Shown here: piece by piece, positions 5,991 through 20,573 of the stretch | Layout: each line of letters starts with the position of its first letter | Position numbering within the stretch: position 1 is the first letter of the stretch | Assembly: GCA_964551375.1 (NCBI GenBank) | Contig: CAZKBG010000001.1 | Span: forward strand, 807,329-839,328 | Reading direction: 5' to 3' | From: an uncultured archaeon | GTDB taxonomy: Archaea; Iainarchaeota; Iainarchaeia; Iainarchaeales; JAAZKV01 | DNA: 32,000 nucleotides | Notes under the pieces: model-generated | What the model saw: only the letters and a program-made list of their open reading frames with translations | What the model was told of the DNA's origin: nothing | The model's database searches: none | Position numbers and translations under genes: made by a program

Positions 5991-6056
5991 AAATTTGAGA
6001 TTATTAAGTGATTTTTACTAAAGCAATTAATTAAAAGTAAAAATGTGGTTGTAATT

Positions 6057-7733: not shown

Positions 7734-10264
7734 ATTCAAAATTATTAATCACCATTGCTTTAGCAATATGCTTACTCATTCCAACTGTATTTGCAGGAAC
7801 AACCCACTGCTGGAGACAAGAAATTGACAGGGGAGTTGGGGCAAATGAATTCATGATAGGGGACGCAAGCTTTGACGCAATATCAGGCGTGTGGATAGCA
7901 ACAATCGGAACAAGAATGGACTTAAACGGATTCGGCTCATTCCAGCTAAATTGCGATGACGGAGCAAGCGGAAGCGGAAAAAACTATGTTGATGTGCTTG
8001 ACGCAACAGACGGAAATATTGTTGCAACAAATGTGACAGGAAATTTAGGCCCTGCGGCAATATCGGGCGGATACTGCATGTATAACGGAAGCATTTGCTA
8101 CAAATACAAAGGCGCATTTTATCCAAGACATGGAGCATGCGATGCAGGAACCGATCCGGCAGTTGGAGCTGGAGAACTAGACGCAATGTCAATAGTGTTT
8201 GATGAAAACAGCGTAGGATATCATGAATATGTTGTGAGATACGGCGCGCTTTCACCAGCAACTGCGGACCCTTACTCGCCAAACTTGTGGATGCAGACAA
8301 TAAAAGTAATAAAAGTATTTGTCGGAATGCCAGGGCTATTAACATTCAACCAGCAGAGATTAAAAAGAATGGGCTATTATGACAAAGACGGCACTGCTGA
8401 AATTGATGTGATATTCACAGTTTTAAATAAATCCCCCTTCACTGCAAGAGTAACTAACTACAATATGGTGTGCAACGGAGAAGTAACTTGCGAACTTCCT
8501 CAAGTGGGCGGGCACCCAGAATATGTTGGATACACAATCAAAACAGACCAGCCGCTTGTAATTCCAGCAAAAGTAAAATTTAATAAAAGAACTACGCTTC
8601 CTGAAGATTTCTTCGCCTCGCTTGAAATGACTTACTCAATTGACGGGCTTGCAAAATGCGACCTTGCAACAGGCGCAGCAACATGCCAGACACGCTCTGC
8701 AGCAATGGAATACAAAATAGGGCTTTTAGACAAGCAGGATTTCCAGATAAATATACTTGGCTCTGAATCGGAAAGAGATTGCGTTGATGCTGAAGGAAAC
8801 CCTGGAAGAACAGGGCCAGAACTTGCGCCAAGAGTGAACTTATCCTTCAATCCTTCCACAGTAAGCTATGATTGTTCAAATATTAATCCAATAACAGGCG
8901 CAGATAATCCAAATTGGGTATACTGTTCTCAAAAAGAATTCTTAGTTCAGTTAAGCAGAAGAATCGGAGAAGGATGGATAAGACTTGGGAATATCAAAAT
9001 TTATGAAAAAGACGGCAACGCAGGCGCAGCGGATGCATTAAGAGTTGAAAATGGAAGAATACTAACATTCAATGCTTACTTAAGAGCGCAGGACATCTCA
9101 CGAGCTCAGGTATCGGCAAATGCTTCTCAATTTGGAACAGGATTATTAACTTCAGTAAATCTTCCAGGAACAGTATTTGATTCAGGCGCAACAGCGGTCG
9201 CAAGAATGAAAAACCTTGTTAATTCAATAAATTTCAAACAATCAATCGGCGGAGTAAGAGTGGATGAAACAATGCTTGAACCCGGAATGTACCAAGTTTC
9301 AATTGACATGAATGACATTGACCTTTCAAGCGCGGCAACTTCAACTTTATTCAAACCTGACGGCTCAATAAACCCTGCCGCAAACATAAAAGTAACTCTT
9401 GAAAAACAAACTCCTCCGGCATTTGACTGGTTCTTCTATTACGATGAAGATTCAGCATCAAGATTTGCGGGAAGCATATACGGAGGAGGCTCAACAGCAA
9501 CTACATTTAACAAAACAAATATACAAGACAGAGGGTTAATTGTTAATTTCACAAAATCAGGCTCATCAATGAGCGGGACTTTATACAAAACAATTGCAAT
9601 TCCTTTAATTGCAAGAATTGCAGACACAAACCTCCCAAGCGTTCCTCCTGCAAAGTTTGACGCACAGGGAAGCGGACTTGGACAGAGCAACTTTACTTAC
9701 TGGACAGGATTTGCAAGCTCACTTCCAGCAGGACCTCAAAGAGGATGCGAAACAATCAGCCTTACTCCTCCGCTTGGAAATAAAGCGCTGCCTTATAGAA
9801 TTGCAGATATAAATGCGGGATTAAACAATATTCAAACTAATATTCATAATTATACAATAGAAGAATTAGTTAACGTTGCGCCAAACAGCGTGATGTATCT
9901 TGAAACAGTTCTATATATGCCAGTGGGCTCGGGATTATGGATACAAGCGCCATTCAAAATATCAACGCTAAACGGAACAACAACAAGCACTCCTCAAAAT
10001 CCGCAGACATTAAATATTTCTCCAAGCGACCAAGCATGGGCAAGCGTGTTTAAGATTGACGGAACAAGCACAAACAACACGCTTGAAAATATATTTGACA
10101 AAATCGCAGACGGAAATGTGTGCGTAATAAGAGACACTTCACAAAGCGCGACAAACTGGAGACTATTCTGGAACCAAACTGCTGTACTTAACGCTCTAAA
10201 TCCAGTTAGAACTTCAATAAGAGATGCTAATTTATGCGCTGCAAGACAGCAATTATCAAGCTAA
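7730..10264 (+). CDS. Secreted 844-aa protein of unknown function, third gene of the envelope operon
   Basis: The ATG at 7730 overlaps the upstream TGA (ATGA at 7730-7733), which indicates translational coupling. Signal peptide MNSKLLITIALAICLLIPTVFA. No other hydrophobic span and no recognisable domain. Confidence 0.85.
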   Translation: MNSKLLITIALAICLLIPTVFAGTTHCWRQEIDRGVGANEFMIGDASFDAISGVWIATIGTRMDLNGFGSFQLNCDDGASGSGKNYVDVLDATDGNIVATNVTGNLGPAAISGGYCMYNGSICYKYKGAFYPRHGACDAGTDPAVGAGELDAMSIVFDENSVGYHEYVVRYGALSPATADPYSPNLWMQTIKVIKVFVGMPGLLTFNQQRLKRMGYYDKDGTAEIDVIFTVLNKSPFTARVTNYNMVCNGEVTCELPQVGGHPEYVGYTIKTDQPLVIPAKVKFNKRTTLPEDFFASLEMTYSIDGLAKCDLATGAATCQTRSAAMEYKIGLLDKQDFQINILGSESERDCVDAEGNPGRTGPELAPRVNLSFNPSTVSYDCSNINPITGADNPNWVYCSQKEFLVQLSRRIGEGWIRLGNIKIYEKDGNAGAADALRVENGRILTFNAYLRAQDISRAQVSANASQFGTGLLTSVNLPGTVFDSGATAVARMKNLVNSINFKQSIGGVRVDETMLEPGMYQVSIDMNDIDLSSAATSTLFKPDGSINPAANIKVTLEKQTPPAFDWFFYYDEDSASRFAGSIYGGGSTATTFNKTNIQDRGLIVNFTKSGSSMSGTLYKTIAIPLIARIADTNLPSVPPAKFDAQGSGLGQSNFTYWTGFASSLPAGPQRGCETISLTPPLGNKALPYRIADINAGLNNIQTNIHNYTIEELVNVAPNSVMYLETVLYMPVGSGLWIQAPFKISTLNGTTTSTPQNPQTLNISPSDQAWASVFKIDGTSTNNTLENIFDKIADGNVCVIRDTSQSATNWRLFWNQTAVLNALNPVRTSIRDANLCAARQQLSS

Positions 10265-10351
10265 AAATCAAGCGCTAAAAACGCCAAAAAAGTACATGAC
10301 TTAACGTGTATTTTTTATAAAAAAAGCTTAATGTAGAAATTTATTTGCTTG

Positions 10352-11146
10352 TTAAGGCAATTTCATCTTAAAATATCCTGCGAGAATCAGAATTACTGCA
10401 AGCGCCATTAATAAAATCAAAAAACCTTTGCTTTCAAAAAAAGAAACGCTTTTTTTCACAATCCCTTTTGAGTTTTTAGCGTCTTTAGAGCCTGAAGAAA
10501 CCGATGCAGCGCCCATCATTATTGCTTCTTTTGAATATTTCAGCCAATTTGAAGGCGTCTTAAGCTCATTAATTGTTTCTCTTGTTACTTCAAGATAGCC
10601 CTTCTCTCTATTTGGCACACCGCTAATACCCTCAATCTTTCCATCAATGGCATTAATTGTAAGCGCGTACTCTTTTCTTCCCGCAATAACAGTTGTCATG
10701 TAAAGAGGGAGAAGAAATTTCTTCGCGCTTGAAACAACAACATTGCTTTTTGGAACATTAAAATACTCCGCGGTTTTTAATTGCAAAATCTCATCCTGTT
10801 CGCGCTTTTCGATATTGCACCACTTTTCATCATACTCGCCTTTAGGAATATCCGAGTGCGATTTTTTCCAGCTGTGCTTAATCAGTTCGACATAATCTTC
10901 CCTCACAACAATTTTGTGCCCATTCACAGCCAAAATTCCGTGGATAGTTTTTTTCACAGTCCGCTTTGAATCAATAGCGTCTTCGACATAGTAGTGATAA
11001 TTAAATAAAAAATAAGGCACTAAGAAGAGCTTCAAAGGCTTGAGCTCATATTCGTGCCAATTTCGTTTTTCAAGTTCTTTCTTAATTAAATCCGTCGCGC
11101 CAGAGGCGGTGATGTTGATAGGCAATAGCGGATTGCCCAAGTACAA
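10352..11146 (-). CDS. Tail-anchored (C-terminal TM) protein of unknown function, coupled to sepF
   Basis: The only start candidates near the 5' end are TTG (11146 or 11140), 5 nt after the sepF stop. There is no signal peptide. A single C-terminal hydrophobic span, FLILLMALAVILILAGYF, is followed by KMKLP. Two similar beta-rich modules are present (IHGILAVNGHKIVV and ALTINAIDGKIEGI). Confidence 0.7.
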   Translation of the reverse strand: MYLGNPLLPINITASGATDLIKKELEKRNWHEYELKPLKLFLVPYFLFNYHYYVEDAIDSKRTVKKTIHGILAVNGHKIVVREDYVELIKHSWKKSHSDIPKGEYDEKWCNIEKREQDEILQLKTAEYFNVPKSNVVVSSAKKFLLPLYMTTVIAGRKEYALTINAIDGKIEGISGVPNREKGYLEVTRETINELKTPSNWLKYSKEAIMMGAASVSSGSKDAKNSKGIVKKSVSFFESKGFLILLMALAVILILAGYFKMKLP

Positions 11147-11151
11147 CTAAC

Positions 11152-11508
11152 TCACTGTCCCTTTTTCTTTATGATTTTAACTTTTGATGGAGTAACTAAA
11201 ACTCTATCTGCGCTAATTCCAGCCATGTCTCCGTCAATAGCTCTAACTTCGTTTTTAATTCTTCCAAGAAGCTCTTTTAATTTTGCTTTGTTTCTCTTAG
11301 TCATATCAGCGATGTTAACAAGAGCAATATTTCCCTGTTTAACTTCTCTAATAATAGCTTCAGCATCAGGATCAGAATTCAAATCCATTGGCTTAACAAG
11401 AGCGTCAGCATTTTCGTAGCTTTCTTCCTGCACTGCGTCCAAGTTGTTCAAAAAGTCTTCTAAATCAACTGAACCTTCTTTTGTCATTACTTTGTTAAAA
11501 AAACCCAA
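11152..11508 (-). CDS. sepF: Cell division protein SepF (FtsZ membrane anchor), 118 aa with a TTG start
   Basis: The core sequence KQGNIALVNIADMTKRNKAKLKELLGRIKNEVRAIDGDMAGISADRVLVTPSKVKI matches the SepF/DUF552 fold pattern. The TTG at 11508 is preceded by GGGGTGG with a 5-nt spacer and gives the N-terminus (M)GFFNKVM, an amphipathic helix. The track start at 11610 adds 34 implausible residues. The ATG at 11487 is the alternative start. Confidence 0.85.
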   Translation of the reverse strand: MGFFNKVMTKEGSVDLEDFLNNLDAVQEESYENADALVKPMDLNSDPDAEAIIREVKQGNIALVNIADMTKRNKAKLKELLGRIKNEVRAIDGDMAGISADRVLVTPSKVKIIKKKGQ

Positions 11509-11558
11509 ACTAACCACCCCGCGTAAAAGCGCGTATATTACCTTTTCTTGAGTAAAAC

Positions 11559-11566
11559 ATTTAAAA
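11559..11566 (-). promoter_or_regulatory. Candidate TATA box for sepF
   Basis: The minus strand reads TTTTAAAT about 50 nt upstream of the TTG at 11508. This would leave a ~25-30 nt leader containing the GGTGG Shine-Dalgarno motif. Confidence 0.3.
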
Positions 11567-11740
11567 GCCCTATGTTTAGCTCGTAAAAGTAAGTAAATTA
11601 ATCTTTTCAAAATTTTTTTGATTTTGTTTAACCGCAGGCAAGTTTTTAGCCAAAGTATAGAATCCGAACAGGGAACTAATTAATGCAAGGTAAGGGGTGT
11701 ATTAGTGGAAGAGAGTGCTGGGAAGTGAGACAGCCAGTAT

Positions 11741-11748
11741 TTTTATAA
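11741..11748 (+). promoter_or_regulatory. Candidate TATA box for cdc6/orc1
   Basis: TTTTATAA lies ~43 nt upstream of the ATG at 11791. Its position rules out the track's TTG start at 11752, which would sit upstream of the expected transcription start. Confidence 0.45.
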
Positions 11749-11790
11749 CTTTTGACTCACAAAATCAATTGGTTAGGGGACGGGGAAAAA

Positions 11791-13002
11791 ATGGATAATA
11801 TTTTTGAAAAACAAATGTCAAAGAACACAGTTTTTCAAAGCAAAGATATAATCTCTCCTCACTACGTTCCTGACAAACTTCCTTTTAGAGAAAAACAAAT
11901 TGAAGAAATCACACAAGGATTATCCGCTGTAATAAATAATTCAAAACCAAATAATCTTTTTGTTTACGGAAAAACAGGAACGGGAAAAACAAGCACAGTA
12001 AAACATGTTCTTGAGCAGCTTGACACATTTGCAAAGAAAAAAGAAATGAGCGCATCCTCCTGCTATGTTAATTGCAGAAGCCACTCATCAAAATACAAAG
12101 TTCTGCTAAAAGCGCTTCGCTCATTCTATCCTGAAAAAGATTTTTTAGGATACAGCGCATCATTTGTTTATGAAAAACTGCTTGAATACGCAAGCCAGAA
12201 AAAAGCTCACTTAATTTTAGTGCTTGACGAGATTGACAAAGTAAAAGATATTGATGATTTAGTGTACTCGCTAAGCAGAGGAAATGACGAGCTTGAAGGC
12301 GGCTCAATTACAATGATAGGAATTTCAAACAACTTAATGTTTAAAGAAAAACTTGACCCAAGAACAAAAAGCTCTCTATGTGAAAGGGAATTAGTATTTA
12401 ATCCATACAACGCAACTGAACTCCGCGAAATACTAACTGAAAGATGCTCAATTTCATTCAAACAAAACGCGGTTGCAGAACCAGCAATACTGCTTGCAAG
12501 CGCAATTGCTGCGCAGGAAAGCGGAGACGCAAGAACCGCAGTAATGCTTATGCAAAGAGCAGGAGAAATAGCGGATGTAGAGCAGGTGATGGTAGTAACT
12601 GATACTCATGTTCAAAAAGCAAAAGCAAGCGTGGAAGAAGAAATAATTATTTCAATGATATCAACACTTCCCCAGCAGCAGCAAATGGTGCTTTATGCAA
12701 TCGCGCAGCTCACCACCCAAAGAAAAGGAATAAAAAAAGTGAACGGAGAAGTGGAAGAAGGAGTGCTTTATTCAGGCGAAATATTTGAGACATACTCTGA
12801 TCTTGCAAAGAAATTTGAAGAACACACAATCACGAGCCGTTGGTATAGACAGTACATAAACGAACTTGAAATGTACGGGTTGATTTTAGTAACCGCAAGC
12901 GGAAAGGGGATCAAAGGACAAACAAGACTCATAAAACTCGGATTTGACGCAAACAAAATCAAAGCAGCGCTTGAGAAAGAACTTTTTAAAACAATGAATT
13001 AA
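11791..13002 (+). CDS. cdc6: Cdc6/Orc1 replication initiator (AAA+ ATPase with C-terminal winged helix)
   Basis: Walker A motif YGKTGTGKTS, Walker B motif LILVLDEID, sensor-2-like SGDARTAV, and the typical N-terminal HYVPDKLPFREKQIEE. The ATG at 11791 is preferred over the TTG at 11752. Confidence 0.92.
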   Translation: MDNIFEKQMSKNTVFQSKDIISPHYVPDKLPFREKQIEEITQGLSAVINNSKPNNLFVYGKTGTGKTSTVKHVLEQLDTFAKKKEMSASSCYVNCRSHSSKYKVLLKALRSFYPEKDFLGYSASFVYEKLLEYASQKKAHLILVLDEIDKVKDIDDLVYSLSRGNDELEGGSITMIGISNNLMFKEKLDPRTKSSLCERELVFNPYNATELREILTERCSISFKQNAVAEPAILLASAIAAQESGDARTAVMLMQRAGEIADVEQVMVVTDTHVQKAKASVEEEIIISMISTLPQQQQMVLYAIAQLTTQRKGIKKVNGEVEEGVLYSGEIFETYSDLAKKFEEHTITSRWYRQYINELEMYGLILVTASGKGIKGQTRLIKLGFDANKIKAALEKELFKTMN

Positions 13003-13041
13003 TACGACTTAGCTATTTTTTTTAAGTTGTTTTAGGAAGTA

Positions 13042-13049
13042 TTTTATTT
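13042..13049 (+). promoter_or_regulatory. Candidate TATA box for the pilin-like adhesin gene (leaderless geometry)
   Basis: TTTTATTT ends 20 nt before the ATG at 13070. The expected transcription start therefore falls at or next to the start codon. No Shine-Dalgarno motif is present. Confidence 0.45.
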
Positions 13050-13069
13050 GAATAAAGCGTGATAGTACT

Positions 13070-14866
13070 ATGCAAAGCTTGAGAAAAAAATCAACTGCCC
13101 AAGGAACAATAGAATACTTAGTAATTATGGCAATAGTAATAGTAATTGCGCTTGTGCTTGTGGGAATATTAAGCGGATTTTTTGGAGGAAGCGGAGAATC
13201 AACTGGGTTTAATGCGGTTGATGTCGGAAACAAAACTAACTCAGGAGTGGCAATACTTGAAACAGTAGCTGATTCAGAAGGAGATTCGCTTGTAAGACTC
13301 ACTAATAATTCAGGGGACACAATTACAATAAACAAAGTGACTACCACAGGCGGAGAAAACAGCTTTAATGAAACACTTCCCGCAAACACTGAAAGAACAT
13401 TTTCTTTAAACGACTTTGATTTAAGCTGCCCATGCGACGGACAAAGTGTCAAAAAAATCTGTGAGTTTACAATTCAATACACTAACCAATACGGGCTTGA
13501 AAAAAGCCAAAATGTGCGAGCAGTAGTTGACTGCGTTAATGACGCCCGCGCAGGAGGAAATACTCCTGTTGCTGGACTTGGAAGCGGAACTCTATCTGAT
13601 CCTTGGATAATAAATTCCTGTGCTGAACTTCAAGACATGAATAACCATTTAGACGGCAACTATGCGCTTGGCGGTAATATTAACTGCGCAGATTCGCTTA
13701 CATGGAACAATGGAGCAGGATTCAGTCCAATAGGATTTACAACAACAAACGGAGCAGGATGTCCGCCAGATTCAGCGCCATTTTGGGACTTATGCCTAAC
13801 TCCTGACACACAATACTTTAACGGAACACTTGACGGAAAAGGATTTACAATAAGCAATTTTTACATAAACCGCCTTGATGAAAATTTTGTAGGACTATTC
13901 AAAGTGCTTGGAGATACTGCGAGAATAACAAATCTAAATTTTACAGGAGCAAATGTAACAGGCGGAAGCGAAGTCGGAACAATTGCGGGAATGAATTACA
14001 GCGGGTATGCTGAAAGAGTAATTGTAAACGGAGATATTAACGGCGGAGCGTATGTCGGAGGATTATTCGGAAGCGCAGCAGTGAATTCAGACACAAACAA
14101 AAGCGCATCAATTTATCTCTCTGGAACAAGCGGAAAAGTCAACGGCGGGTATAGAGTCGGATGCCTTGTAGGAAACGGACACTCTTTCACAATTGATAAA
14201 TCATATTCAACCTGTGATGTAAACGCGGTTGTGGAAGCAGGAGGGCTAGTTGGAACAGTGTGGTATAATACAGTGATTACACGAAGCTATGCGACAGGAA
14301 ATGCAACTGCAGACCAAACATTAGCAGGAGGACTTGCCTCAGCATCAAATGGGACAATCAGAGACTGCTATGCGACAGGAAATGTAATAGCACTATCAGG
14401 AGCTGGCGGATTAATGGGCGGAGGAGGAGCACTAGTAATGAATAGTTATGCTACAGGCACAGTAACTTCACCACGCGCAACAGGAGGGCTAATTGGAGAT
14501 ACAATCGGGGCGATAGTAAATTCATTTGCAACAGGGCGTGTTACGGGAGATGCAAATGTTGGCGGAGTAGCAGGAGTAGTATGGGATGCATGGTGTCAAT
14601 ATGATGAAAATGTAAACTGGTCAACAACTAATACAACAATGCCAGACGCATATGGCGCATGGTATGCAAATCACGCGGGCGGATGCGGAATAAATAATTA
14701 CACACACGCGGTTGGGGTAAATAATCCTGACGGCAATTATGAATACTGGTATAATCCAACAAATACTCCTTTGCAATATTGGGGCGGATTTGGCTCGGAT
14801 AAGAACTGGAATATTTGCTCAGGGCAGGGCTTTCCTTGGCTGTCATGGGAAAACAGAACCTGCTGA
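13070..14866 (+). CDS. Class III signal peptide (archaeal type IV pilin-like) protein fused to a GLUG-repeat beta-helix adhesin domain, 598 aa
   Basis: The N-terminus MQSLRKKSTAQGTIEYLVIMAIVIVIALVLVGIL matches the class III signal pattern (basic n-region, then Q-x-[ST]-x-E-x-x-x-hydrophobic, then a hydrophobic helix). Residues ~170-270, GSGTLSDPWIINSCAELQDMNNHLDGNYAL...FNGTLDGKGFTISNF, form the usual lead-in to GLUG repeats. Residues 273-510 carry about 8-9 GLUG-type repeats. The C-terminus is an aromatic/Asn-rich cap ending GQGFPWLSWE. Confidence 0.85.
   Translation: MQSLRKKSTAQGTIEYLVIMAIVIVIALVLVGILSGFFGGSGESTGFNAVDVGNKTNSGVAILETVADSEGDSLVRLTNNSGDTITINKVTTTGGENSFNETLPANTERTFSLNDFDLSCPCDGQSVKKICEFTIQYTNQYGLEKSQNVRAVVDCVNDARAGGNTPVAGLGSGTLSDPWIINSCAELQDMNNHLDGNYALGGNINCADSLTWNNGAGFSPIGFTTTNGAGCPPDSAPFWDLCLTPDTQYFNGTLDGKGFTISNFYINRLDENFVGLFKVLGDTARITNLNFTGANVTGGSEVGTIAGMNYSGYAERVIVNGDINGGAYVGGLFGSAAVNSDTNKSASIYLSGTSGKVNGGYRVGCLVGNGHSFTIDKSYSTCDVNAVVEAGGLVGTVWYNTVITRSYATGNATADQTLAGGLASASNGTIRDCYATGNVIALSGAGGLMGGGGALVMNSYATGTVTSPRATGGLIGDTIGAIVNSFATGRVTGDANVGGVAGVVWDAWCQYDENVNWSTTNTTMPDAYGAWYANHAGGCGINNYTHAVGVNNPDGNYEYWYNPTNTPLQYWGGFGSDKNWNICSGQGFPWLSWENRTC
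13886..14599 (+). repeat. GLUG-type repeats (about 8-9 units of ~26-30 aa) within the pilin-like adhesin
   Basis: Recurrent units include VGGLFGSAAV..., AGGLVGTVWYNTVITRSYATGNATADQT, LAGGLASASNGTIRDCYATGNVIALSG, AGGLMGGGGALVMNSYATGTVTSPRA, TGGLIGDTIGAIVNSFATGRVTGDAN and VGGVAGV. Confidence 0.8.
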
Positions 14867-14916
14867 AATATTTACCTTGCGAAAGCTAAAAGTATCAAAA
14901 AGCGGATTTAGTGTTT

Positions 14917-15186
14917 TCACTTTTTATAAATCTCTTTAAGCCAAATCTTTTTGAAAAGCGGAAGCGATAATGTTGACAAAACAAAACCTGCTGTGGGCAC
15001 AAGAGCGTTCACAAAAGGATTTGGCAAATTAGCCACAATAAAAAACAAGACAATTACAATGTAAGTCAAAATTGCAATAATTATTTTTCTTGTTTTGCTC
15101 ACTTCCCAAGCCTTGTCAATCTCCACGCGCGCGTTTCTTTCCTTAATTGCTTCAATTTCTTTTTTTGCGCTTCTTGATGCAGCCAT
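14917..15186 (-). CDS. Small (89 aa) two-TM membrane protein of unknown function
   Basis: The ATG is preceded by AAGGTGA with a 4-nt spacer. A charged N-terminal helix (KKEIEAIKERNARVEIDKAWEVSKTRK) is followed by two hydrophobic spans. The gene lies 40 nt downstream of polD DP2 on the same strand. Confidence 0.7.
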   Translation of the reverse strand: MAASRSAKKEIEAIKERNARVEIDKAWEVSKTRKIIIAILTYIVIVLFFIVANLPNPFVNALVPTAGFVLSTLSLPLFKKIWLKEIYKK

Positions 15187-15226
15187 TAATTCACCTTAAG
15201 TATATGCAGTTTAGATAATTAAATAT

Positions 15227-18200
15227 TTATGCAAACTCAAACAAACTCTTCTGCTTCACAGTGTCGCTTTTGAAAACAGAATTAATTTCTTTCTCAATCA
15301 TATTAAGCCTCTGGATTAAATATGGGGAAAGGTTTTCCTGCCGAGCCATGTTCTGCGCAATTTTTAGATACTTTCTAACAGAGCCCTCATGAATTGTCAA
15401 AATAATTGTGCTTTTGCCGCACTTATAGCACTTGCCGCTTAATGGAATTCTTCTATATTTCTCCTGACAAGTGGTGCATCTAAAAGTCTGCCTTGAGAAT
15501 GCTCTTGCGTTTCCAATAATATCAGGAAGGAAGTGAGAACCCATAACCCTCTCAAGAGCATCCTTAGCATTAACCGCCATTATTTTCTTTTGAAGATTAT
15601 TCTGCCTTTGGATTTTCTCATCCATGGACTTAAGCTGAACATATCTTGACATTTTTGGACCCTCGTCAAACTGATTAGTGTCATGAGTGAAGCCAAGCCC
15701 CGAGTACTGCTTTGCTTTACCCAGCCTGTCTTTCACAGTCTCAATAGGCATATTGGGCTCGCAAACAGCCTGCGATTTTTCGTAAAGCTCAAGCGGAAAT
15801 TCCCAGCAGGTTTCCATCTTATGAACTTCATCATCAACTTCGCTTGGATTTATTATAATAGTAAAAACAAGCGGAGCATCCATTCTTCCCCCGCTCTTTG
15901 TTGAAAGATACTTGTGCGAGAAATTAATCAGCGCATCCATTAGAAGCATTACAGAATCCTGATCCCCGTCAACGTTTCTTCTCTTTGCGCAGACAAAGTA
16001 AGGGTGCCCGAATCCGAGTCTTGCCTTAGTATACCCAAGAACTCTTGCATTAACTGCTGCCGAAGTGTGAGGAGCAAGCCCGAGAACTAAATGTCCTATT
16101 AGATCCTCTTTTTTAGTTGCATTGTAAAATCTTGGAAGCTGATAGTATTTTTCAAGAAGCTCGTCAATGAACTGGCTGACATTAACAAGCCAGTCTCCGC
16201 AGGTTTCATTAACTACAACATCCTGCGGAAAAACTTCAATCAACTGGTCAATATTAGTAATTTCGTTTCCATAAATATCGGTTTTATACCCAAGCTCTAT
16301 TACTTTTTCCACAGTGAGATTTAATTCTCTTGGGCGAAAGTGAGTAAGAATTGCGTTTAACAATTCGAATCTTGAAGTTCCGTCACGGAAGATGTGCACA
16401 TTATGCTTTGCCCTAAGTATTCCTTTTTCAAGCGGCTCAATTTCCTTAGTGTCTGAAATCATTCCTTTAACTCCCTTAATCGGGTCAGGAAGAATATTTT
16501 CTTTTAAATTAAGTCTGGCTTTTTCCATGAATGCCCTAATATTAATTTCATGCTCACCAAAGTGAACAGTTTTATTTCCGCACACGCCGCACTGTTCGCC
16601 AGTAACTGATTTTTGGCAATTTTTACAGTAATTCAATCTCACTCCGTCAATTTTGCATGCAGGGCACACATGATGAAGCGAAATCTTTTTGCAGTCAGGG
16701 CAGACATATTCAGCCACTTCAACAGTAGCTTTTCCACTCTCGTTATAATTTTCATCAACAGCTTTATTTATGCTCCTGATATTTCCCCCCTTAAGTCCTA
16801 TAGGGAATAATACATGCGGATTTCCCTTCATCTCTCTTGGCTTTGCCTGTTCAGGCCTCCCCATTCTCCCTCCAATGAATGAGCCCGCTTTGTCTCTAAT
16901 AATTAATCCTGAAATTTCTGATAAATATTCAAGCACAGTTTCTTTTGAACTTTTCTTACTCTGCCCAACGGCAAAAGTTTGGCATACGCTCTCAACATTT
17001 TCATCAATAATAATCTGGGCTGCTTTTGTGGAATGAGGCATTCCAATTTTTTCCAAAAGTTTCTTATACTCGCTGTTGTGCGCAAGAACCAAAACCTTTT
17101 TGCCATTAATTTGCTCAATTTTTCCAGTTTCAATAAAATTGTGAAGCATTATAATTTCTTTTACGTTAAGCGCTTTGTAAAAATTAATATAATTAGGGTG
17201 GAGGGGCAATCCAAGTTCTTTTGAAAGAGAAAGCGCCAAGTTTTCGGGAACTTTTTGAAGCTCTGAAATTGAAGCTTTTAACAAATAGTCCCCGCCAAGA
17301 GCAGAAAGCTTTTCTTTCTTAGCAGGTTCTTCCACAGCTTTTCTAAGCTCAAGCTGCCACCACTCTTCGCAGTACCCTACGGGCACAAGAGGATGAGCGC
17401 TCTTTTTGAAATCTCCAAAAGTCGCAAGCAAATCCCCAAGATAAAGAATCTTATCCAAATTTGCTTTGACATTTTCAGCTTCAGCCACTGAATTAATTTT
17501 TCGCACACTCCCGTCTTTGAGAAGCACAACAGGGCCTTCAATTGTAGTACAAGGGAAAAACTGAGTGGCTTTTCCAGGCCTTTCAATTCTGCCGTGAGTT
17601 CCAACAGCAATAAATTCATCAAGCAAAATCATCGCGGCAGGGTTAATTGCTTTTGCCATTATTCCAGTAGTTCTTCCCCTTCCATATCTTAATCTAAAAC
17701 CGCCCCAGCTGCTTGGGTACGCTAAGATTGGTCTTCCAGCAGCAAGCCTGTCAAGGAAGGCTTTGTTTGGCTTAACTTCAATTTTAGTCTGGGTTTTTTC
17801 AACCTTTACAATTTTTTCCAAAAAATCCCAATTAAGCCCAAGGTCCTTTGCTGTTTTCATTACCCAAAGAGCTTTTAGCGCAAGTCCTTCAGAAACAACT
17901 AATCCCATTCCGCCCCTGATTCTATTTGTTGGAACTCTTGCAAGGTCCCTGTGCGCAGAAACTTCAACTTCTTCAGTCGGCACGCCGTTAATGCAAATAG
18001 GACAACCGTTAATTATTACTCTAATTTCATCATCGCTCATTGTGTACTGTCTTGAAATAACTTCAGTCTGATAAATTCCAATCTCTTCAACATATCTTTC
18101 AACTTCATCCTGAGTCGGCTTATATCTGTCAAGCTTTAAATAAGTCCTTGCAAAATCTCCAAGAATAAGAGGGATAACTGTTGAAGAGCCACCAGCAGCC

Positions 18201-18742
18201 CTAATCGGTCCAGCAAAATAAATGTCAATATATTTTGAGCCGTCCTGATTATTATTAATCTCAACTTTTGGAACGCCGTCAAGCGGAGCAACAACAACCC
18301 CTTCAGTTTCAATCAAAAGACAAGTCTTGATTCCAATCTCCACTCTCTTTTGGTCGTTTTCCATTTTCCACCATCTATCTTCAAGAATCTCGCGGAACAA
18401 CTGGAAGTATGCTTTTCTTCTGTCTTTTGTTTCAATAAATACTTCCCTAAATCTTTTAGCTAAGCCGGGAAGTCCAATGATTGTTTCCGCACGATCTGCC
18501 AAGTCCACTGCAGGAGTAACTTCAACATGCCTTGACAAGTCAAGCCCTTTTTCTTTTGCTTTCTCTGCTGCTTCAAAAGCAAGGAGAGATTTTTTTTGAA
18601 TAATTTTAAAATATTCTTTAATATGCGGCTCTGCTTCAAAAGGAATCTCCTGCGTAATCATTTCAGTCGGAGAAAGCTTCTTTGCCATTATTTGCTTTTT
18701 CTTTTGTTCTTCAGTAAAAGGAGTCTGGAATTTTTCAGCCAT
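15227..18742 (-). CDS. polC: DNA polymerase II (PolD) large catalytic subunit DP2, 1171 aa, intein-free
   Basis: Full-length collinear DP2 architecture with internal Zn clusters CPDCKKISLHHVCPACK and CKNCQKSVTGEQCGVCG and a C-terminal cluster CTTCQEKYRRIPLSGKCYKCG. The start overlaps the DP1 stop by 8 nt. Confidence 0.95.
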   Translation of the reverse strand: MAEKFQTPFTEEQKKKQIMAKKLSPTEMITQEIPFEAEPHIKEYFKIIQKKSLLAFEAAEKAKEKGLDLSRHVEVTPAVDLADRAETIIGLPGLAKRFREVFIETKDRRKAYFQLFREILEDRWWKMENDQKRVEIGIKTCLLIETEGVVVAPLDGVPKVEINNNQDGSKYIDIYFAGPIRAAGGSSTVIPLILGDFARTYLKLDRYKPTQDEVERYVEEIGIYQTEVISRQYTMSDDEIRVIINGCPICINGVPTEEVEVSAHRDLARVPTNRIRGGMGLVVSEGLALKALWVMKTAKDLGLNWDFLEKIVKVEKTQTKIEVKPNKAFLDRLAAGRPILAYPSSWGGFRLRYGRGRTTGIMAKAINPAAMILLDEFIAVGTHGRIERPGKATQFFPCTTIEGPVVLLKDGSVRKINSVAEAENVKANLDKILYLGDLLATFGDFKKSAHPLVPVGYCEEWWQLELRKAVEEPAKKEKLSALGGDYLLKASISELQKVPENLALSLSKELGLPLHPNYINFYKALNVKEIIMLHNFIETGKIEQINGKKVLVLAHNSEYKKLLEKIGMPHSTKAAQIIIDENVESVCQTFAVGQSKKSSKETVLEYLSEISGLIIRDKAGSFIGGRMGRPEQAKPREMKGNPHVLFPIGLKGGNIRSINKAVDENYNESGKATVEVAEYVCPDCKKISLHHVCPACKIDGVRLNYCKNCQKSVTGEQCGVCGNKTVHFGEHEINIRAFMEKARLNLKENILPDPIKGVKGMISDTKEIEPLEKGILRAKHNVHIFRDGTSRFELLNAILTHFRPRELNLTVEKVIELGYKTDIYGNEITNIDQLIEVFPQDVVVNETCGDWLVNVSQFIDELLEKYYQLPRFYNATKKEDLIGHLVLGLAPHTSAAVNARVLGYTKARLGFGHPYFVCAKRRNVDGDQDSVMLLMDALINFSHKYLSTKSGGRMDAPLVFTIIINPSEVDDEVHKMETCWEFPLELYEKSQAVCEPNMPIETVKDRLGKAKQYSGLGFTHDTNQFDEGPKMSRYVQLKSMDEKIQRQNNLQKKIMAVNAKDALERVMGSHFLPDIIGNARAFSRQTFRCTTCQEKYRRIPLSGKCYKCGKSTIILTIHEGSVRKYLKIAQNMARQENLSPYLIQRLNMIEKEINSVFKSDTVKQKSLFEFA

Positions 18743-20300
18743 TATTCACACCTGCGCTGTCGGTTATAGTTGCTTCAACTGTCTGAGTCAAAAATGAAGT
18801 CTGAACAATCTGCCGAGTCTTAAGGCTAATAGTCGGGAAAAAACAAGGAGTCGGAGTGTGCCCGATTTTCTTTTCAAAATCAGTCTGCCCTTCCCAGCAG
18901 CTTGAATTAATTACAGTAGTGCCGCGATAAGTGGAGTAACCCTTGCAGTGCAGATCCCCAAACCAAACAATATCAGGCTCTTCCTTAATTACCATATAAT
19001 CCCTGCCTTCAGGAACATAAGGATTTTTTCCCCCATACTTTGGCATCAAGTCCCTCTTTTTCAAAAGCTCAATCATTGCTTCAGTAGGGCGGGTCATCTC
19101 AAGAAAACTCACACTGCTTATGAGGTCGTGAACACTCGGACCGTGATAAATTAAATTTTTTATTCCTTCAGTCTCCACCCAAGAAGGAGAAGAAATAAAA
19201 TGGAAATTATTTAATTTAGAAAGCCGGGGAACAAACTCCTTATCAATTCCGGGCTGGGGCTCCGCTCTTCTAACCGCATCATGCTGTCCAGGGCAGATGA
19301 AGACATGAATATATTCAGGAATCTGAAGCATTAAATCCTCAAATTTCTGGTACTGTTCATATACATCTTTAATTATGAGGTCATCAAACTGCCCAGGGTA
19401 AACTCCAACCCCGGCAACATTATCTCCAGTGCACATAATGTACTGAATTTTTCCCACTCTCTCCTGCTGTTTTGCAGTGAGTCCTTTTCCATTCAAATAA
19501 TCAAGAAGTCTAGTAAACTGCTCTTCGTAAAATAATTTACTTCCAACGTGCATGTCAGTAATTCCGCCGATTAATACTTCCTCATTAATTGTTCTGCTTG
19601 AGCGAATCGGAAGATCCGGCCAAAAAACATCTTTAATTATTATGAAATCTTTTCCCCATTTAGTTCCTTTAATCCCAACAACATTATCCTCAATAATCCT
19701 CTCGGCTTTTTCCATAGTGGCTTTGTCTTTCTCCATCACAAGCGCAATGCATTTATTTTCCATATCCTCAATCTCAAAAGCAGTGTGCCCCTTTTTTGTA
19801 ATCCATTTTTTATTTACAATTCCAATAACATCAATCTGCTCTTTATCCGGTTTTCCTGCAAGGTTTTTTATTGGAACTGCCGCAAGATTATGCCTTGCTT
19901 TAAGCATTCCTGATAAAATTTCATACTTGCTTCTAAATAATCTCAAAAAATCATCAATCTTTCCTTCAGAAGAACTCTGCCCTGTCACGTCATACTCTTT
20001 CATTACCCTAAAATCAGCCGCCCTGTCTTTCGCCTGCGCGGTAAATGAAGCTTTTCTGACCTCGACTTCAGTAACTACCTGCGAGATTTTAGTTCTTGCG
20101 AGTTTTTTCTCTAAAAGATTAGGCTCAATGAAAAAAACTCCTTCACTGGCAAGCTCGTCAAGAATTTTTTTCCAATTCTCGTTTTGAATAAGAAGGTCAA
20201 TGGATTCGTTTGAAAGAATAAGACCCGCATTTTCTGCAAAAGTAATTATATCGTTTCTAGTTGATTCCGACTGCATCAAACCAAGTGTCCAATCGGCCAA
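18735..20300 (-). CDS. polB: DNA polymerase II (PolD) small subunit DP1 (Mre11-like phosphoesterase/exonuclease)
   Basis: Calcineurin-like phosphoesterase motifs DMHVGS, GDNVAGVGVYPGQ, PGQHD and GDLH. The gene overlaps DP2. The start is a TTG at 20300; an ATG at 20276 is the alternative. Confidence 0.92.
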   Translation of the reverse strand: MADWTLGLMQSESTRNDIITFAENAGLILSNESIDLLIQNENWKKILDELASEGVFFIEPNLLEKKLARTKISQVVTEVEVRKASFTAQAKDRAADFRVMKEYDVTGQSSSEGKIDDFLRLFRSKYEILSGMLKARHNLAAVPIKNLAGKPDKEQIDVIGIVNKKWITKKGHTAFEIEDMENKCIALVMEKDKATMEKAERIIEDNVVGIKGTKWGKDFIIIKDVFWPDLPIRSSRTINEEVLIGGITDMHVGSKLFYEEQFTRLLDYLNGKGLTAKQQERVGKIQYIMCTGDNVAGVGVYPGQFDDLIIKDVYEQYQKFEDLMLQIPEYIHVFICPGQHDAVRRAEPQPGIDKEFVPRLSKLNNFHFISSPSWVETEGIKNLIYHGPSVHDLISSVSFLEMTRPTEAMIELLKKRDLMPKYGGKNPYVPEGRDYMVIKEEPDIVWFGDLHCKGYSTYRGTTVINSSCWEGQTDFEKKIGHTPTPCFFPTISLKTRQIVQTSFLTQTVEATITDSAGVNNG

Positions 20301-20330
20301 ACGTATTCTATTTTTGAAATACTCGCTTGT

Positions 20331-20573
20331 TCACTTCATCTTTTCCTTATTCGCTTCAATCAGCGAGATTAGGTGCCAGATGTCTGTTCTTGTATGATCA
20401 GGCATGTTGACGTCATTACTAATATCGTCAAGTAAATAAATCGCTTCGCTAAGCGAAGTGACATTTGCCTGCTTTACTTTAAAAACAGCTTCTTCTATTT
20501 TTGCCCTGATGTTACGCGGAACGGCTCTGTCTGCAACGATTTCATTCATTATTGCGAGAATTTCGTCGTTCAT
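20331..20573 (-). CDS. UPF0147 family small protein (80 aa)
   Basis: DRAVPRNIRAKIEEA...LLDDISNDVNMPDHTRTDIWHLISLIE matches the UPF0147 signature. The ATG at 20573 is preceded by GGTGAT with a 5-nt spacer. The track start at 20609 adds 12 Cys/Leu-rich residues with no ribosome-binding site. Confidence 0.8.
   Translation of the reverse strand: MNDEILAIMNEIVADRAVPRNIRAKIEEAVFKVKQANVTSLSEAIYLLDDISNDVNMPDHTRTDIWHLISLIEANKEKMK

What the first reader, a model, noticed from the sequence alone, without database searches (positions are those of the whole stretch)
13070..14866. Type IV pilin-like signal peptide fused to a GLUG-repeat beta-helix adhesin
The N-terminus MQSLRKKSTA|QGTIEYLVIMAIVIVIAL fits the archaeal class III signal. 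The Q-x-T-x-E-x-x-x-I stretch corresponds to the Q-x-S-x-E-x-x-x-L pattern of EppA/PibD-processed pilins, with predicted cleavage before Q11. Typical archaeal pilins are ~130-200 aa. This protein is 598 aa. It carries a pilin-like globular part (residues ~40-160), a ~340-aa GLUG-repeat beta-helix of the kind seen in bacterial adhesins and IgA-protease-like proteins, and a Trp/Tyr/Asn-rich cap. That architecture suggests an adhesin incorporated into or displayed on a type IV pilus-like fibre, for example as a tip subunit. No pilus ATPase, platform protein or prepilin peptidase lies in the window. The promoter geometry indicates a leaderless mRNA, unlike the Shine-Dalgarno-led neighbours.
Basis: partly seen in the sequence, partly recalled or inferred. 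Interest (0 to 1): 0.7.

Follow-up and report, generated by a model that had tools for sequence, protein, structure and literature searches.

The report
Archaeal modular pilin carrying GLUG beta-helix
This 598-residue surface protein of a small DPANN archaeon (Iainarchaeota-like) joins a genuine type IV pilin module to a GLUG beta-helix; it is one of hundreds of "pilin plus passenger" proteins in this lineage and is probably used to make pili or the cell surface stick to something.

Summary
ORF 13070-14866 (+) encodes 598 aa with these parts:
- a class-III-type signal (leader MQSLRKKSTA, then QGTIEY plus a hydrophobic helix);
- a disordered Ser/Gly linker;
- a 100-aa Cys-bearing beta-sandwich;
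- a complete GLUG beta-helix module, which passes the Pfam cutoff and is modelled by AF2 at pLDDT >90. Its best structural match is the IgA1-protease beta-helix.

The N-module is a real pilin module. Its first 24 mature residues are 83% identical to ~150-aa PF04021 pilins encoded beside T2SSE/T2SSF genes in related genomes. Its globular part is homologous to theirs (HHalign 97%, E 1e-11).

The gene is not a one-off fusion. The N-module heads 727 protein clusters. In Iainarchaeota MAGs it carries GLUG, LamG, RCC1, FG-GAP, SBBP or nothing, with at least 9 copies per ~1-Mb genome.

The syntenic counterpart is only 33% identical, while the flanking genes are 79-87% identical.

A pilus ATPase sits on a contig of the same length as this gene's source contig. 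The prepilin peptidase, the cleavage and the incorporation into a filament remain untested.

Verdict: this is an archaeal counterpart of bacterial "modular pilins", a new member of a known kind. It is moderately interesting because of the lineage-wide cassette-like expansion.

The parts
13040..13049 (+). TATA-like box (tattttattt), 21-30 nt upstream of the ATG. This is the candidate promoter of a leaderless or near-leaderless mRNA.
   Evidence: Sequence read. In relatives a TATA-like octamer starts 27-35 nt upstream of the ATG in 34% of family genes against 15% of control genes. No transcription start site data, so this is inferred.
13070..14866 (+). Whole ORF, 598 aa plus stop codon: archaeal modular pilin-like protein with a GLUG passenger.
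13070..13099 (+). Leader peptide, aa 1-10 (MQSLRKKSTA). The predicted cleavage site is after Ala10 and before Gln11.
   Evidence: Sequence. Relatives have [KR]-x0-3-[AG] before an invariant Q. Cleavage is inferred by analogy with PF04021 / EppA-type substrates.
13100..13183 (+). Mature N-terminus QGTIEY plus hydrophobic alpha-helix (aa 11-38). This is the pilin alpha1 segment, with Glu at mature position 5.
   Evidence: AF2 helix at 13-38. Q11, T13, E15, Y16 and L17 are invariant. 20 of 24 residues are identical to the T2SSF-adjacent ~150-aa pilins.
13184..13240 (+). Ser/Gly/Thr-rich linker (aa 39-57), predicted disordered. It contains the sequon N54-K-T.
   Evidence: pLDDT <50 at 36-56. Sequons listed.
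13241..13540 (+). Seven-stranded beta-sandwich (aa 58-157) with conserved Cys120, 122, 131 and 155. This is the globular part of the pilin module.
   Evidence: AF2 pLDDT 88-97. HHalign against the globular part of the ~150-aa locus-encoded pilins gives prob 97.4%, E 9.6e-12 over 105 columns. Foldseek hit to the Pyrobaculum T4 pilin 6w8u_A has E 4e-4 and TMt 0.49, among generic Ig-like hits. The module heads 727 protein clusters.
13541..13579 (+). Short inter-module linker (aa 158-170).
   Evidence: The boundary is inferred. Homology to N-module-only proteins ends at ~160-172. Sec-dependent GLUG proteins begin with the motif that follows here (G-S-G-T-x-x-D-P-[WY]).
13580..14584 (+). GLUG passenger (aa 171-505). 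A helical entry region (aa ~179-215) is followed by a parallel beta-helix (core ~250-505) built from ~26-27-aa turns.
   Evidence: Pfam GLUG 39.8 bits against cutoff 20.5. AF2 pLDDT is mostly >90 across the ~250-505 core. The Foldseek top hits are the G. haemolysans IgA1 protease 7uvl/7uvk (E 7e-6). DNA repeats lie 78-81 nt apart.
14585..14863 (+). Trp/Tyr/Asn-rich C-terminal end of the GLUG module (aa 506-598), with 4 Cys and the closing motif ...NW-x-ICSGQGFPWLSWENRTC.
   Evidence: Sequence and composition. Low confidence at 533-557 and moderate confidence at 580-598. The family consensus is NW...YPxLxWQ, as at the ends of bacterial GLUG proteins such as P0119.
11752..13002 (+). Upstream neighbour Orc1/Cdc6. 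It is the conserved left border of the variable slot.
   Evidence: Pfam Cdc6_C and Cdc6_lid. 87% identical to L006 2578-3789.
14917..15186 (-). Downstream neighbour, an 89-aa membrane protein followed by PolD DP2 (15227-18742). It is the conserved right border of the slot.
   Evidence: 71% and 79% identity to the L006 counterparts.

Best explanation
The gene encodes an archaeal modular type IV pilin. The proposed pathway has five steps.

1. The pre-protein is inserted into the membrane through its class III-type signal.
2. An A24 prepilin peptidase (EppA/PibD type) removes the 10-residue leader, so that Gln11 becomes the new N-terminus.
3. The hydrophobic alpha1 helix with Glu at +5, together with the beta-sandwich, forms a pilin module.
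4. The lineage's T2SSE ATPase and its two T2SSF platform proteins can extract this module from the membrane. They would co-assemble it with the ~150-aa major-type pilin, which has almost the same alpha1 helix.
5. The 430-residue GLUG beta-helix passenger hangs from the module by a short linker. It is too bulky for regular packing in the shaft, so it most likely sits at the pilus tip or as a sparse minor subunit. There it would act as a binding (adhesive) surface for a partner cell, host or polymer.

Shown here: the domain architecture, the homology of the pilin module, the presence of the machinery in the lineage, the family expansion and the fast divergence.

Inferred: cleavage, assembly into a filament, tip position and the adhesive role.
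For: Signal:
- The leader has Lys5-Lys6, Ala at -1 and Gln at +1, then about 25 hydrophobic residues.
- Q, T, E, Y and L of QGTIEYL are invariant in 34 homologues.
- 13 of 34 family members hit PF04021 at E<=0.01.
- Relatives with the same motif pass the PF04021 cutoff: L001 pilin 26.7 bits, L007 27.4, L033 28.1, L024 25.4.

Pilin module:
- Mature residues 1-24 are 20/24 identical to ~150-aa pilins encoded directly after T2SSE-T2SSF-T2SSF in Iainarchaeota loci L001, L078 and L080.
- The globular parts alone align at HHalign prob 97.4%, E 9.6e-12.
- Stand-alone versions of the module of 145-190 aa exist.
- The AF2 fold is helix plus Ig-like sandwich, as in solved archaeal pilins (6w8u, 8q30).

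Machinery:
- T2SSE plus 2 T2SSF lie within 4-9 kb of three tandem GLUG paralogues in L001. A GLUG paralogue lies 7.6 kb from the ATPase in L080. An ATPase lies 170 bp from a family member in L044.
- ATPase P0270 (63% identical to the L001 ATPase) is recorded in NCBI and Logan on a single contig of 946,135 bp, exactly as the window protein is.
- A two-platform-gene "system 1" (Epd-like) type IV filament system with a dedicated peptidase is reported for DPANN (preprint 10.64898/2026.04.22.720090). Diapherotrites genomes are reported to have type IV pili (PMC8561730).

Passenger:
- GLUG passes the Pfam cutoff, and the AF2 beta-helix matches the IgA1-protease beta-helix.
- Sec-dependent GLUG proteins start where the passenger starts.

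Modularity:
- The same module carries LamG, RCC1, FG-GAP+Big_7, SBBP, DUF5018 and Fib_succ_major passengers.

Precedent:
- Bacterial modular pilins are polymerised through their pilin module and act as adhesins (PMC8179133). The prepilin+GLUG architecture is listed 6 times in that paper's dataset (that IPR011493 is GLUG rests on my own knowledge).
Against: - This protein itself scores below the PF04021 and Pilin_N cutoffs.
- Its -2 residue is Thr rather than the charged residue that FlaFind-type rules expect (rule recalled from memory). Relatives mostly have K or R there.
- No prepilin peptidase was found in the window or in ~0.93 Mb of related loci. That search was motif-based only. The only GxGD protease found is an SPP/presenilin.
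- Only 2 of 76 related loci have an ATPase within 10 kb. A third such case, L080, turned up when searching outward from the ATPases. Most copies, including this one, are scattered among housekeeping genes.
- Similarity to solved pilin structures is modest and sits among generic Ig-like folds.
- A 20-residue disordered linker separates the helix from the sandwich.
- At least 9 bulky paralogues per ~1-Mb genome is a lot for tip subunits.
- No ligand, binding site or expression data exist.
Confidence: 0.6

Rival explanations
1. The class III signal is used only for export and anchoring. The protein is processed (or not) and stays tethered in the membrane by its hydrophobic helix, or it joins a short bindosome-like surface assembly. 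It would then be a cell-surface adhesin or coat component rather than a subunit of a long pilus. The Ser/Gly linker would serve as a stalk.
For: - There are many paralogues per small genome, scattered among housekeeping genes.
- A disordered 20-residue Ser/Gly-rich linker follows the helix.
- The bulky passengers, up to 1,400 aa, are hard to fit into a filament.
- Precedent recalled from my own knowledge: Sulfolobus sugar-binding proteins carry class III signals and need a type IV pilus-like Bas system. The bindosome is listed among archaeal type IV filament systems in the preprint.
Against: - The invariance of Q+1, T+3, E+5, Y+6 and L+7 and the near-identity of alpha1 to the machinery-linked ~150-aa pilin go beyond what an anchor needs.
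- A conserved, pilin-homologous beta-sandwich is retained in all 727 clusters, whatever the passenger.
- Paralogues cluster next to the pilus locus in L001, L044 and L080.
Confidence: 0.25
2. The N-terminal helix is an ordinary uncleaved signal-anchor. The protein would be a type II membrane protein with an extracellular Ig-like stalk and a beta-helix, unrelated to type IV pilus biology.
For: PF04021 and Pilin_N are below cutoff for this protein. The top Foldseek hits of the N-domain include helix-plus-sandwich membrane proteins such as PmoB and TRAP. No peptidase was located.
Against: - The motif is the same as in relatives that pass the PF04021 cutoff.
- The module is homologous to pilins encoded in T2SSE/T2SSF operons.
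- A polar and acidic QGTIE start, invariant across the family, is not a feature of plain signal-anchors.
Confidence: 0.07
3. The passenger is not an adhesin but an enzyme or enzyme-associated domain. It could be a glycan-degrading beta-helix or a protease accessory domain like the N-terminal region of M26 IgA1 proteases, delivered on the pilin module.
For: The Foldseek top hits are the IgA1 protease 7uvl/7uvk (E 7e-6). There are weak hits to family 28 exopolygalacturonase (2uve/2uvf, prob 0.3-0.7). Peptidase_M26_N and ZmpA give sub-threshold matches. Raynaud et al. note pilin modules carrying peptidase domains.
Against: - There is no catalytic domain. The matches cover only the beta-helix. The protein has only 4 His and no HExxH (sequence).
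- The match to M26_N is 16 bits against a cutoff of 27.7.
- The polygalacturonase matches have TM ~0.2 and 8-9% identity.
- Sister passengers (LamG, RCC1, FG-GAP, SBBP) are binding folds.
Confidence: 0.1

Closest known systems
Bacterial modular type IV pilins (S. sanguinis PilB with vWA and PilC with a ConA-like lectin; Raynaud et al. 2021, PMC8179133), including the catalogued architecture IPR012902 (prepilin N-terminus) - IPR011493 (GLUG)
   Same: An N-terminal class III signal and a small pilin module are joined by a short linker to a bulky module that is not specific to pilus biology. One carrier bears many alternative passengers, and lectin-type (LamG/ConA-like) passengers occur in both. 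A bacterial prepilin+GLUG protein (P0119, GFTLVE signal, PF07963+PF07581) is among the homologues.
   Different: The carrier here is an archaeal pilin module: a Q+1 / PF04021-type signal and an Ig-like beta-sandwich, not the bacterial alpha-beta roll. The machinery is the archaeal T2SSE plus two T2SSF. Nothing has been tested experimentally. The expansion (at least 9 per ~1-Mb genome, 727 clusters) is much denser than in the bacterial examples.
ComZ of Thermus thermophilus, a competence pilin with a large beta-solenoid module proposed to sit at the pilus tip (PMC6561018; cited in PMC8179133)
   Same: A pilin joined to a beta-helix/solenoid domain, with a predicted tip location and a role in ligand capture.
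   Different: In ComZ the solenoid is an insertion in a bacterial pilin fold and the ligand is DNA. Here a GLUG module is appended C-terminally to an archaeal pilin module and the ligand is unknown.
Epd-type ("system 1") archaeal type IV pili of Methanococcus, with EppA-processed Q+1 pilins and PF04021 class III signal proteins
   Same: Gln at +1 and a Q-x-[ST]-x-E-x-x-x-[LI] start. The locus has one ATPase and two platform genes, and this system type is reported in DPANN. [quoted passage not shown] That EppA requires Q at +1 rests on my own knowledge of Szabo et al. 2007.
   Different: The window protein misses the PF04021 cutoff. No EppA-like peptidase was located. The Iainarchaeota family is far larger and mostly dispersed outside the pilus locus.
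Sulfolobus bindosome (class III signal peptides on sugar-binding proteins, Bas system)
   Same: Large non-filament-type proteins use a pilin-type signal and a type IV pilus-like ATPase and platform for surface deployment (own knowledge; the bindosome is listed).
   Different: Bindosome substrates have no conserved pilin globular module. Here every member keeps a pilin-homologous beta-sandwich.
GLUG beta-helix of M26 IgA1 metalloproteases (G. haemolysans, PDB 7uvk/7uvl) and bacterial GLUG adhesins
   Same: GLUG repeats pass the Pfam cutoff. The beta-helix is the best structural match (E 7e-6). The same entry motif (GSGT-x-x-DP[WY]) and closing motif (W...YP-x-L) are present.
   Different: There is no protease domain and no HExxH. 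Export is by a class III signal instead of Sec, T9SS or LPXTG.

Membership tests
Archaeal class III (prepilin-type) signal peptide proteins, PF04021 / EppA-type | Short basic leader, small residue (G/A) at -1, Gln at +1, then Q-x-[ST]-x-E-x-x-x-[LI] and about 20 hydrophobic residues | tested here: met
   The sequence reads MQSLRKKSTA|QGTIEYLVIMAIVIVIALVLVGIL. AF2 places a helix at 13-38. The motif residues are invariant in the family.
Archaeal class III (prepilin-type) signal peptide proteins, PF04021 / EppA-type | Pfam PF04021 gathering score (23.7 bits) | tested here: not met
   This protein scores 13.2 bits, E 0.09. Relatives with the same motif do pass: 26.7, 27.4, 28.1, 25.4, 25.0 and 23.8 bits. 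13 of 34 family members hit at E<=0.01.
Archaeal class III (prepilin-type) signal peptide proteins, PF04021 / EppA-type | Cleavage by an A24 prepilin peptidase encoded in the genome | not testable with these tools
   No peptidase lies in the window or in 0.93 Mb of related loci by a GxGD/TM motif screen. The 946-kb source contig could not be read.
Type IV pilin (filament subunit of an archaeal type IV pilus) | Homology of the helix and the globular domain to pilins encoded in a T2SSE/T2SSF locus | tested here: met
   HHalign of the family N-module against the ~150-aa locus-encoded pilins gives 99.8% (E 4e-29) with the helix and 97.4% (E 9.6e-12, 105 columns) for the globular part alone. 20 of 24 alpha1 residues are identical.
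Type IV pilin (filament subunit of an archaeal type IV pilus) | Assembly ATPase and platform protein in the same genome | tested here: inconclusive
   None lies in the window. T2SSE P0270 is on a single NCBI/Logan contig of 946,135 bp, the same length and sources as the contig of the window protein. Its DNA could not be fetched. Relatives have T2SSE plus 2 T2SSF.
Type IV pilin (filament subunit of an archaeal type IV pilus) | Structural similarity to solved archaeal pilins | tested here: inconclusive
Type IV pilin (filament subunit of an archaeal type IV pilus) | Polymerisation into a filament | not testable with these tools
   This needs microscopy, proteomics or multimer modelling.
Modular pilin (sensu Raynaud et al. 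2021) | N-terminal pilin module linked to an extra domain that also occurs outside pilus biology | tested here: met
   The pilin module spans aa 1-157 and the GLUG module aa 171-598. GLUG modules also occur with Sec or T9SS signals in bacteria and archaea. The same module carries LamG, RCC1, FG-GAP and SBBP passengers.
GLUG-repeat proteins (PF07581) | Pfam gathering score and a beta-helical fold | tested here: met
   39.8 bits against 20.5. 32 of 34 family members hit GLUG. The AF2 beta-helix spans ~250-505 at high confidence, and the best PDB match is the IgA1-protease beta-helix.
M26 IgA1-specific metalloprotease (ZmpA-like) | Peptidase_M26_N above cutoff plus a catalytic M26 domain with HExxH | tested here: not met
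   M26_N scores 16.2 bits against 27.7. ZmpA scores 14.9 bits against 3000. There is no catalytic domain hit and no HExxH in the sequence.

The most novel reading that the evidence does not exclude
Iainarchaeota (DPANN) would run a lineage-wide cassette system. A single, genome-specific pilin carrier module is recombined with interchangeable binding passengers (GLUG, LamG, RCC1, FG-GAP, SBBP and others) at fast-turning-over loci such as the Orc1|PolD slot. This would give each ~1-Mb genome a repertoire of a dozen or so alternative pilus tips that determine which partner, host or substrate the cell attaches to. It would be an archaeal analogue of pilus-mediated host recognition in ultrasmall CPR bacteria.
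Probability: 0.3. Interest if true: 0.65.

Novelty: new member of a known kind. Interest (0 to 1): 0.42.

Why it matters
Modular pilins, in which a pilin carrier bears a grafted adhesive domain, explain how simple type IV filaments gain many functions. So far they have been catalogued only with the bacterial prepilin signature.

This gene shows the same design built on an archaeal pilin module. It also shows that one DPANN lineage has expanded the design massively: 727 clusters and at least 9 copies per ~1-Mb genome. The passengers are swapped, and divergence is very fast at a syntenic site (33% identity against 79-87% for the flanking genes).

DPANN archaea are thought to depend on contact with other cells. 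These proteins are therefore concrete, testable candidates for the molecules that make that contact. In public annotation they are currently labelled only as "GLUG motif-containing" or hypothetical proteins.

Tried and rejected
- PDB sequence search of the protein gave only chance-level hits.
- The Pfam and NCBIfam hits to Peptidase_M26_N and ZmpA are sub-threshold. Without a catalytic domain or HExxH, the protease reading was rejected.
- I searched for a prepilin peptidase in the window and in 77 related loci using GxGD motifs plus a transmembrane-segment count. Only an SPP/presenilin (L030 6198-7154, PF06550) and an MFS transporter turned up. This is a weak negative.
- I tried to reach the rest of the source genome. 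The look-up of encoding contigs returned only an 18.5-kb Logan contig for the window protein and nothing for ATPase P0270.
- A profile search with the ~150-aa pilins listed a member on the syntenic relative's 788-kb contig. None on the 946-kb contig appeared among the 120 of 331 hits shown, so this is unresolved.
- The viral contig scan found no relatives.
- FlaFind and PilFind cannot be run here. I applied the rule from memory only.
- Repeat searches around the gene found no origin-like or regulatory repeats, only the DNA echo of the GLUG turns.
- Literature searches for GLUG + archaea + pilin, modular pilin + archaeal, and DPANN + pilin + adhesin found no description of this family.
Full report

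Yes. ORF 13070-14866 (+) is an uninterrupted ATG-to-stop frame of 598 aa. Its N-terminus reads MQSLRKKSTAQGTIEYLVIMAIVIVIALVLVGIL. In the six-frame translation of the 32-kb window it is the only Q-x-x-x-E-[YF]-L type motif at the start of an ORF.

Pfam results:
- GLUG (PF07581) scores 39.8 bits against a cutoff of 20.5.
- Peptidase_M26_N scores 16 bits against 27.7, below cutoff.
- Pilin_N (residues 23-92) has E 0.07, below cutoff.
- Class_IIIsignal PF04021 (residues 10-30) scores 13.2 bits against 23.7, below cutoff.

The window is archaeal housekeeping DNA at ~38% G+C. It encodes SepF, Orc1/Cdc6, PolD DP2 and DP1, NOG1, SecF/SecD, a small archaeosortase-family protein, CarS, and ribosomal proteins S3Ae and S15. 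It has no T2SSE, T2SSF or A24 peptidase.

**2. Anatomy**

AF2 with a 34-sequence family alignment gave mean pLDDT 81.5 and pTM 0.78. A second model of residues 1-172 gave pLDDT 84. The parts are:
- leader, residues 1-10;
- helix 13-38;
- disordered Ser/Gly linker, about 39-57;
- seven-stranded beta-sandwich 58-157, with Cys120, 122, 131 and 155 conserved in the family;
- short linker;
- a helical entry region, about 179-215;
- a beta-helix, about 250-505, mostly pLDDT >90;
- a Trp/Tyr/Asn-rich end that is partly low confidence.

The protein has 15 Cys and 14 N-x-S/T sequons, against 9.7 expected from composition. That fits an extracellular protein.

Foldseek of the whole model puts the G. haemolysans IgA1 protease (7uvl/7uvk, E 7e-6) on top. 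Solved archaeal pilins (6w8u, 8q30) and FlaF/FlaG appear among weaker hits. The N-domain alone hits the Pyrobaculum pilin 6w8u_A at E 4e-4 and TMt 0.49, but among generic Ig-like and helix-plus-sandwich proteins. The fold is therefore compatible with a pilin but not diagnostic.

**3. Relatives**

The protein search found 2005 homologues. Of the best 120, 46 start with the same [KR]x0-3[AG]|QGT[IV]EYLVI signal, and about ten align over 98-100% of the query. The others are bacterial or archaeal GLUG proteins with Sec or T9SS signals. They begin with the motif that here follows residue ~170 (G-S-G-T-x-x-D-P-[WY]-x-I). This marks the passenger boundary. One bacterial hit, P0119, has a GFTLVE prepilin signal plus GLUG.

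A scan of one genome per species found 129 relatives in 27 assemblies. All are archaeal MAGs, and the named ones are Ca. Iainarchaeum, Ca. ainarchaeum or Ca. Forterrea. One of them, LFW-252_2, is published as Diapherotrites with 1.05 Mb and 40.6% G+C.

A search with residues 1-172 alone against 1.84 billion representatives found 727 clusters at E<=1e-3 and 414 at E<=1e-10. In all of the best 150 the module is N-terminal. Protein lengths run from 145 to 935 aa, so stand-alone pilin-sized versions exist.

In the retrieved loci the same signal plus module carries several passengers:
- RCC1 propellers (1422 aa);
- FG-GAP + Big_7 + GLUG (1233 aa);
- LamG/ConA-like lectin domains;
- SBBP propellers;
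- DUF5018;
- Fib_succ_major.

Up to 9 such genes per genome were seen in the partial sampling alone.

**4. Is the N-module a pilin?**

This is the key test. In Iainarchaeota the pilus locus is conserved. It runs: 4-5 small genes, then T2SSE, T2SSF, T2SSF, sometimes a NeuB-like gene, then one or two ~150-aa PF04021 proteins. This order is seen in L001, L078/L079 and L080/L081.

Those ~150-aa proteins start K[AG]|QGTIEYLVIIAIVVVIALVVVGLL. That is 20 of 24 residues identical to the mature N-terminus of the window protein.

I ran a profile-profile comparison of 80 family N-modules against 118 of the ~150-aa pilins. With the helix included it gives 99.8% probability (E 4e-29). With signal and helix removed it still gives 97.4% (E 9.6e-12, 105 aligned columns). 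The window protein therefore carries a true homologue of the pilin that is encoded with the assembly machinery.

A second class of short proteins (51-117 aa mature) starts QGAIEYLLIIGAAILVVA. These also occur in the loci, and several of them pass the PF04021 cutoff.

**5. Link to machinery**

From the side of the family genes, only 2 of 76 related loci have a T2SSE within 10 kb.
- In L001, three tandem GLUG paralogues lie 4-9 kb from the ATPase, the two T2SSF genes and the pilin.
- In L044, the ATPase is 170 bp from a family member.

From the side of the ATPase, L080 has a 621-aa GLUG protein 7.6 kb away.

Most copies, including the window gene, are dispersed in the genome.

For the window's own genome, the protein is recorded in NCBI and Logan on one contig of 946,135 bp. 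The T2SSE ATPase P0270 (793 aa, 63% identical to the L001 ATPase) is recorded with the same sources, as one contig of the same length. The genome therefore very probably has the ATPase. I could not fetch that DNA. I could not find any A24 peptidase in the sequence available to me.

The literature reports type IV pili in Diapherotrites (PMC8561730). It also reports a two-platform-gene "system 1" (Epd-like, with a dedicated peptidase) in DPANN (preprint 10.64898/2026.04.22.720090).

**6. Synteny and evolution**

Locus L006 (JBAZUY010000001, 788 kb) is collinear with window 7730-24641. Identities to the window are: SepF 82%, Orc1 87%, the 89-aa membrane protein 71%, DP2 79% and DP1 79%.

Between Orc1 and the 89-aa gene, L006 has two class III genes: an RCC1 passenger and a GLUG passenger. 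The window has one. The GLUG counterpart is only 33% identical over 517 aa. The slot is therefore variable and the gene is evolving, or being replaced, far faster than its neighbours.

N-modules are more alike within a genome than between genomes: 45% against 32% identity for the sandwich and 74% against 64% for the helix. The pairs are not independent, so this is only a weak indication. It fits either recent duplication or a carrier kept matched to one machinery.

**7. Promoter**

A TATA-like tattttattt lies at 13040-13049, which is 21-30 nt upstream of the ATG. In relatives a TATA-like octamer starting 27-35 nt upstream of the ATG is found in 34% of family genes against 15% of controls.

Several neighbours have GGTG/AGGTG 7-12 nt upstream of their start codons. 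The target gene has only GTGAT, 9-13 nt upstream of its ATG. A leaderless transcript is plausible but not shown.

**8. Mechanism proposed**

- Shown: the architecture, the homology of the pilin module, the presence of the machinery in the lineage, the modular family and the fast divergence.
- Inferred: membrane insertion, cleavage after Ala10 by an EppA/PibD-type peptidase, extraction by the T2SSE/T2SSF machinery, co-assembly with the ~150-aa pilin through the shared alpha1 helix, display of the GLUG beta-helix at the tip or as a sparse minor subunit, and adhesion.

The main rival is that the signal serves only export and anchoring, in a bindosome-like or membrane-tethered adhesin. The dispersed, numerous and bulky paralogues and the flexible linker speak for it. 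The conserved pilin sandwich and the alpha1 identity speak against it.

A plain signal-anchor and an enzymatic passenger are less likely. There is no HExxH and no catalytic domain, and the sister passengers are binding folds.

**9. Comparison with known systems**

The design matches bacterial modular pilins (PMC8179133). That paper's dataset already lists prepilin+GLUG six times (that IPR011493 is GLUG rests on my own knowledge).

ComZ of Thermus is a pilin with a beta-solenoid proposed to sit at the tip. In archaea, class III signals on non-pilin proteins are known from the bindosome. [quoted passage not shown]

I found no paper describing GLUG or other modular pilins in archaea or this Iainarchaeota expansion. 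NCBI names members only "GLUG motif-containing protein" or hypothetical.

**10. Verdict**

It is a new (archaeal) member of the known modular-pilin kind. The added interest lies in the size, modularity and turnover of the family in a host-dependent lineage. Interest 0.42.

Noticed in passing
L062 6507-8630; P0009, P0037, P0040, P0049, P0054, P0068 (N-termini): Some paralogues have long leaders (25-45 aa) that contain a second, degenerate copy of the cleavage motif without a hydrophobic stretch. An example is MRRAQGTIEEPFLLKQKTLGKKTIA|QGTIEYLV. This could be a duplicated signal fragment, a regulatory leader or a mis-called start.
   Followed up: no
L005 231, 2125 and 3936; L006 8204; L014 9884; L039 19127; L070 1349; L075 9893; L001 9923 (upstream of, and inside, the leader-coding region): There are one to three tandem GC-rich units of about 24-27 nt, such as gcacagggcctgtcctgtgc. 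They are self-complementary (GCACAGG / CCTGTGC) and lie immediately before the QGTIEY codons in otherwise AT-rich DNA. They could be mRNA hairpins or recombination sites. They are absent from the window gene.
   Followed up: no
window 13003-14916 compared with L006 3790-10758: The slot between Orc1/Cdc6 and the 89-aa membrane protein / PolD is variable. The syntenic relative holds two class III genes there (RCC1 passenger of 1422 aa, GLUG passenger of 830 aa), while the window holds one. The flanks are 71-87% identical and the GLUG counterpart is 33% identical.
   Followed up: partly
window 24764-25312 (-): This is a small (182 aa) exosortase/archaeosortase-family protein. It scores 36 bits on TIGR04178 against a cutoff of 23. 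It is closest to ArtD but far below that model's cutoff. It is conserved in L058 at 43% identity.
   Followed up: partly
window 6045-7733 (+), 28628-31984 (-), 10352-11146 (-): These are large secreted or surface proteins that end in a transmembrane helix plus a basic tail (for example ...VPDNGIIVIIAALAIVVGLLSKRRN). The 1118-aa one starts with repeated Cys-rich units. They may be archaeosortase or C-terminal-anchor substrates, which would be a second anchoring route beside the class III route. They have no Pfam or NCBIfam hits.
   Followed up: no
window 516-5990 (+): This is an 1824-aa protein with an N-terminal transmembrane segment and one Ig-like/CarboxypepD_reg-like domain. Distant (25-32% identity) counterparts exist in L014, L052 and L056.
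   Followed up: no
L030 6198-7154 (+): A presenilin-type signal-peptide peptidase (PF06550, 65.8 bits) is encoded directly downstream of a family member. It is not the A24 prepilin peptidase. It could clear signal remnants.
   Followed up: partly
L024 615-803; L058 6953-7126; L007 5473-5850; L048 7058-7843; L066 8983-9903; L060 1190-2527: A second class III subtype starts QGAIEYLLIIGAAILVVA. It occurs on very short proteins (51-117 aa mature) and also on LamG, Fib_succ_major and GLUG passengers. This suggests two parallel pilin carrier types in the same genomes.
   Followed up: partly
L001 5847-9169; L078 6535-9848; L080 6643-9799: Four or five conserved small genes (215-290 aa, mostly without Pfam hits) lie divergently upstream of the T2SSE ATPase. 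One is weakly KaiC/FlaH-like and one weakly CARDB-like. They may be accessory parts of this pilus system.
   Followed up: no
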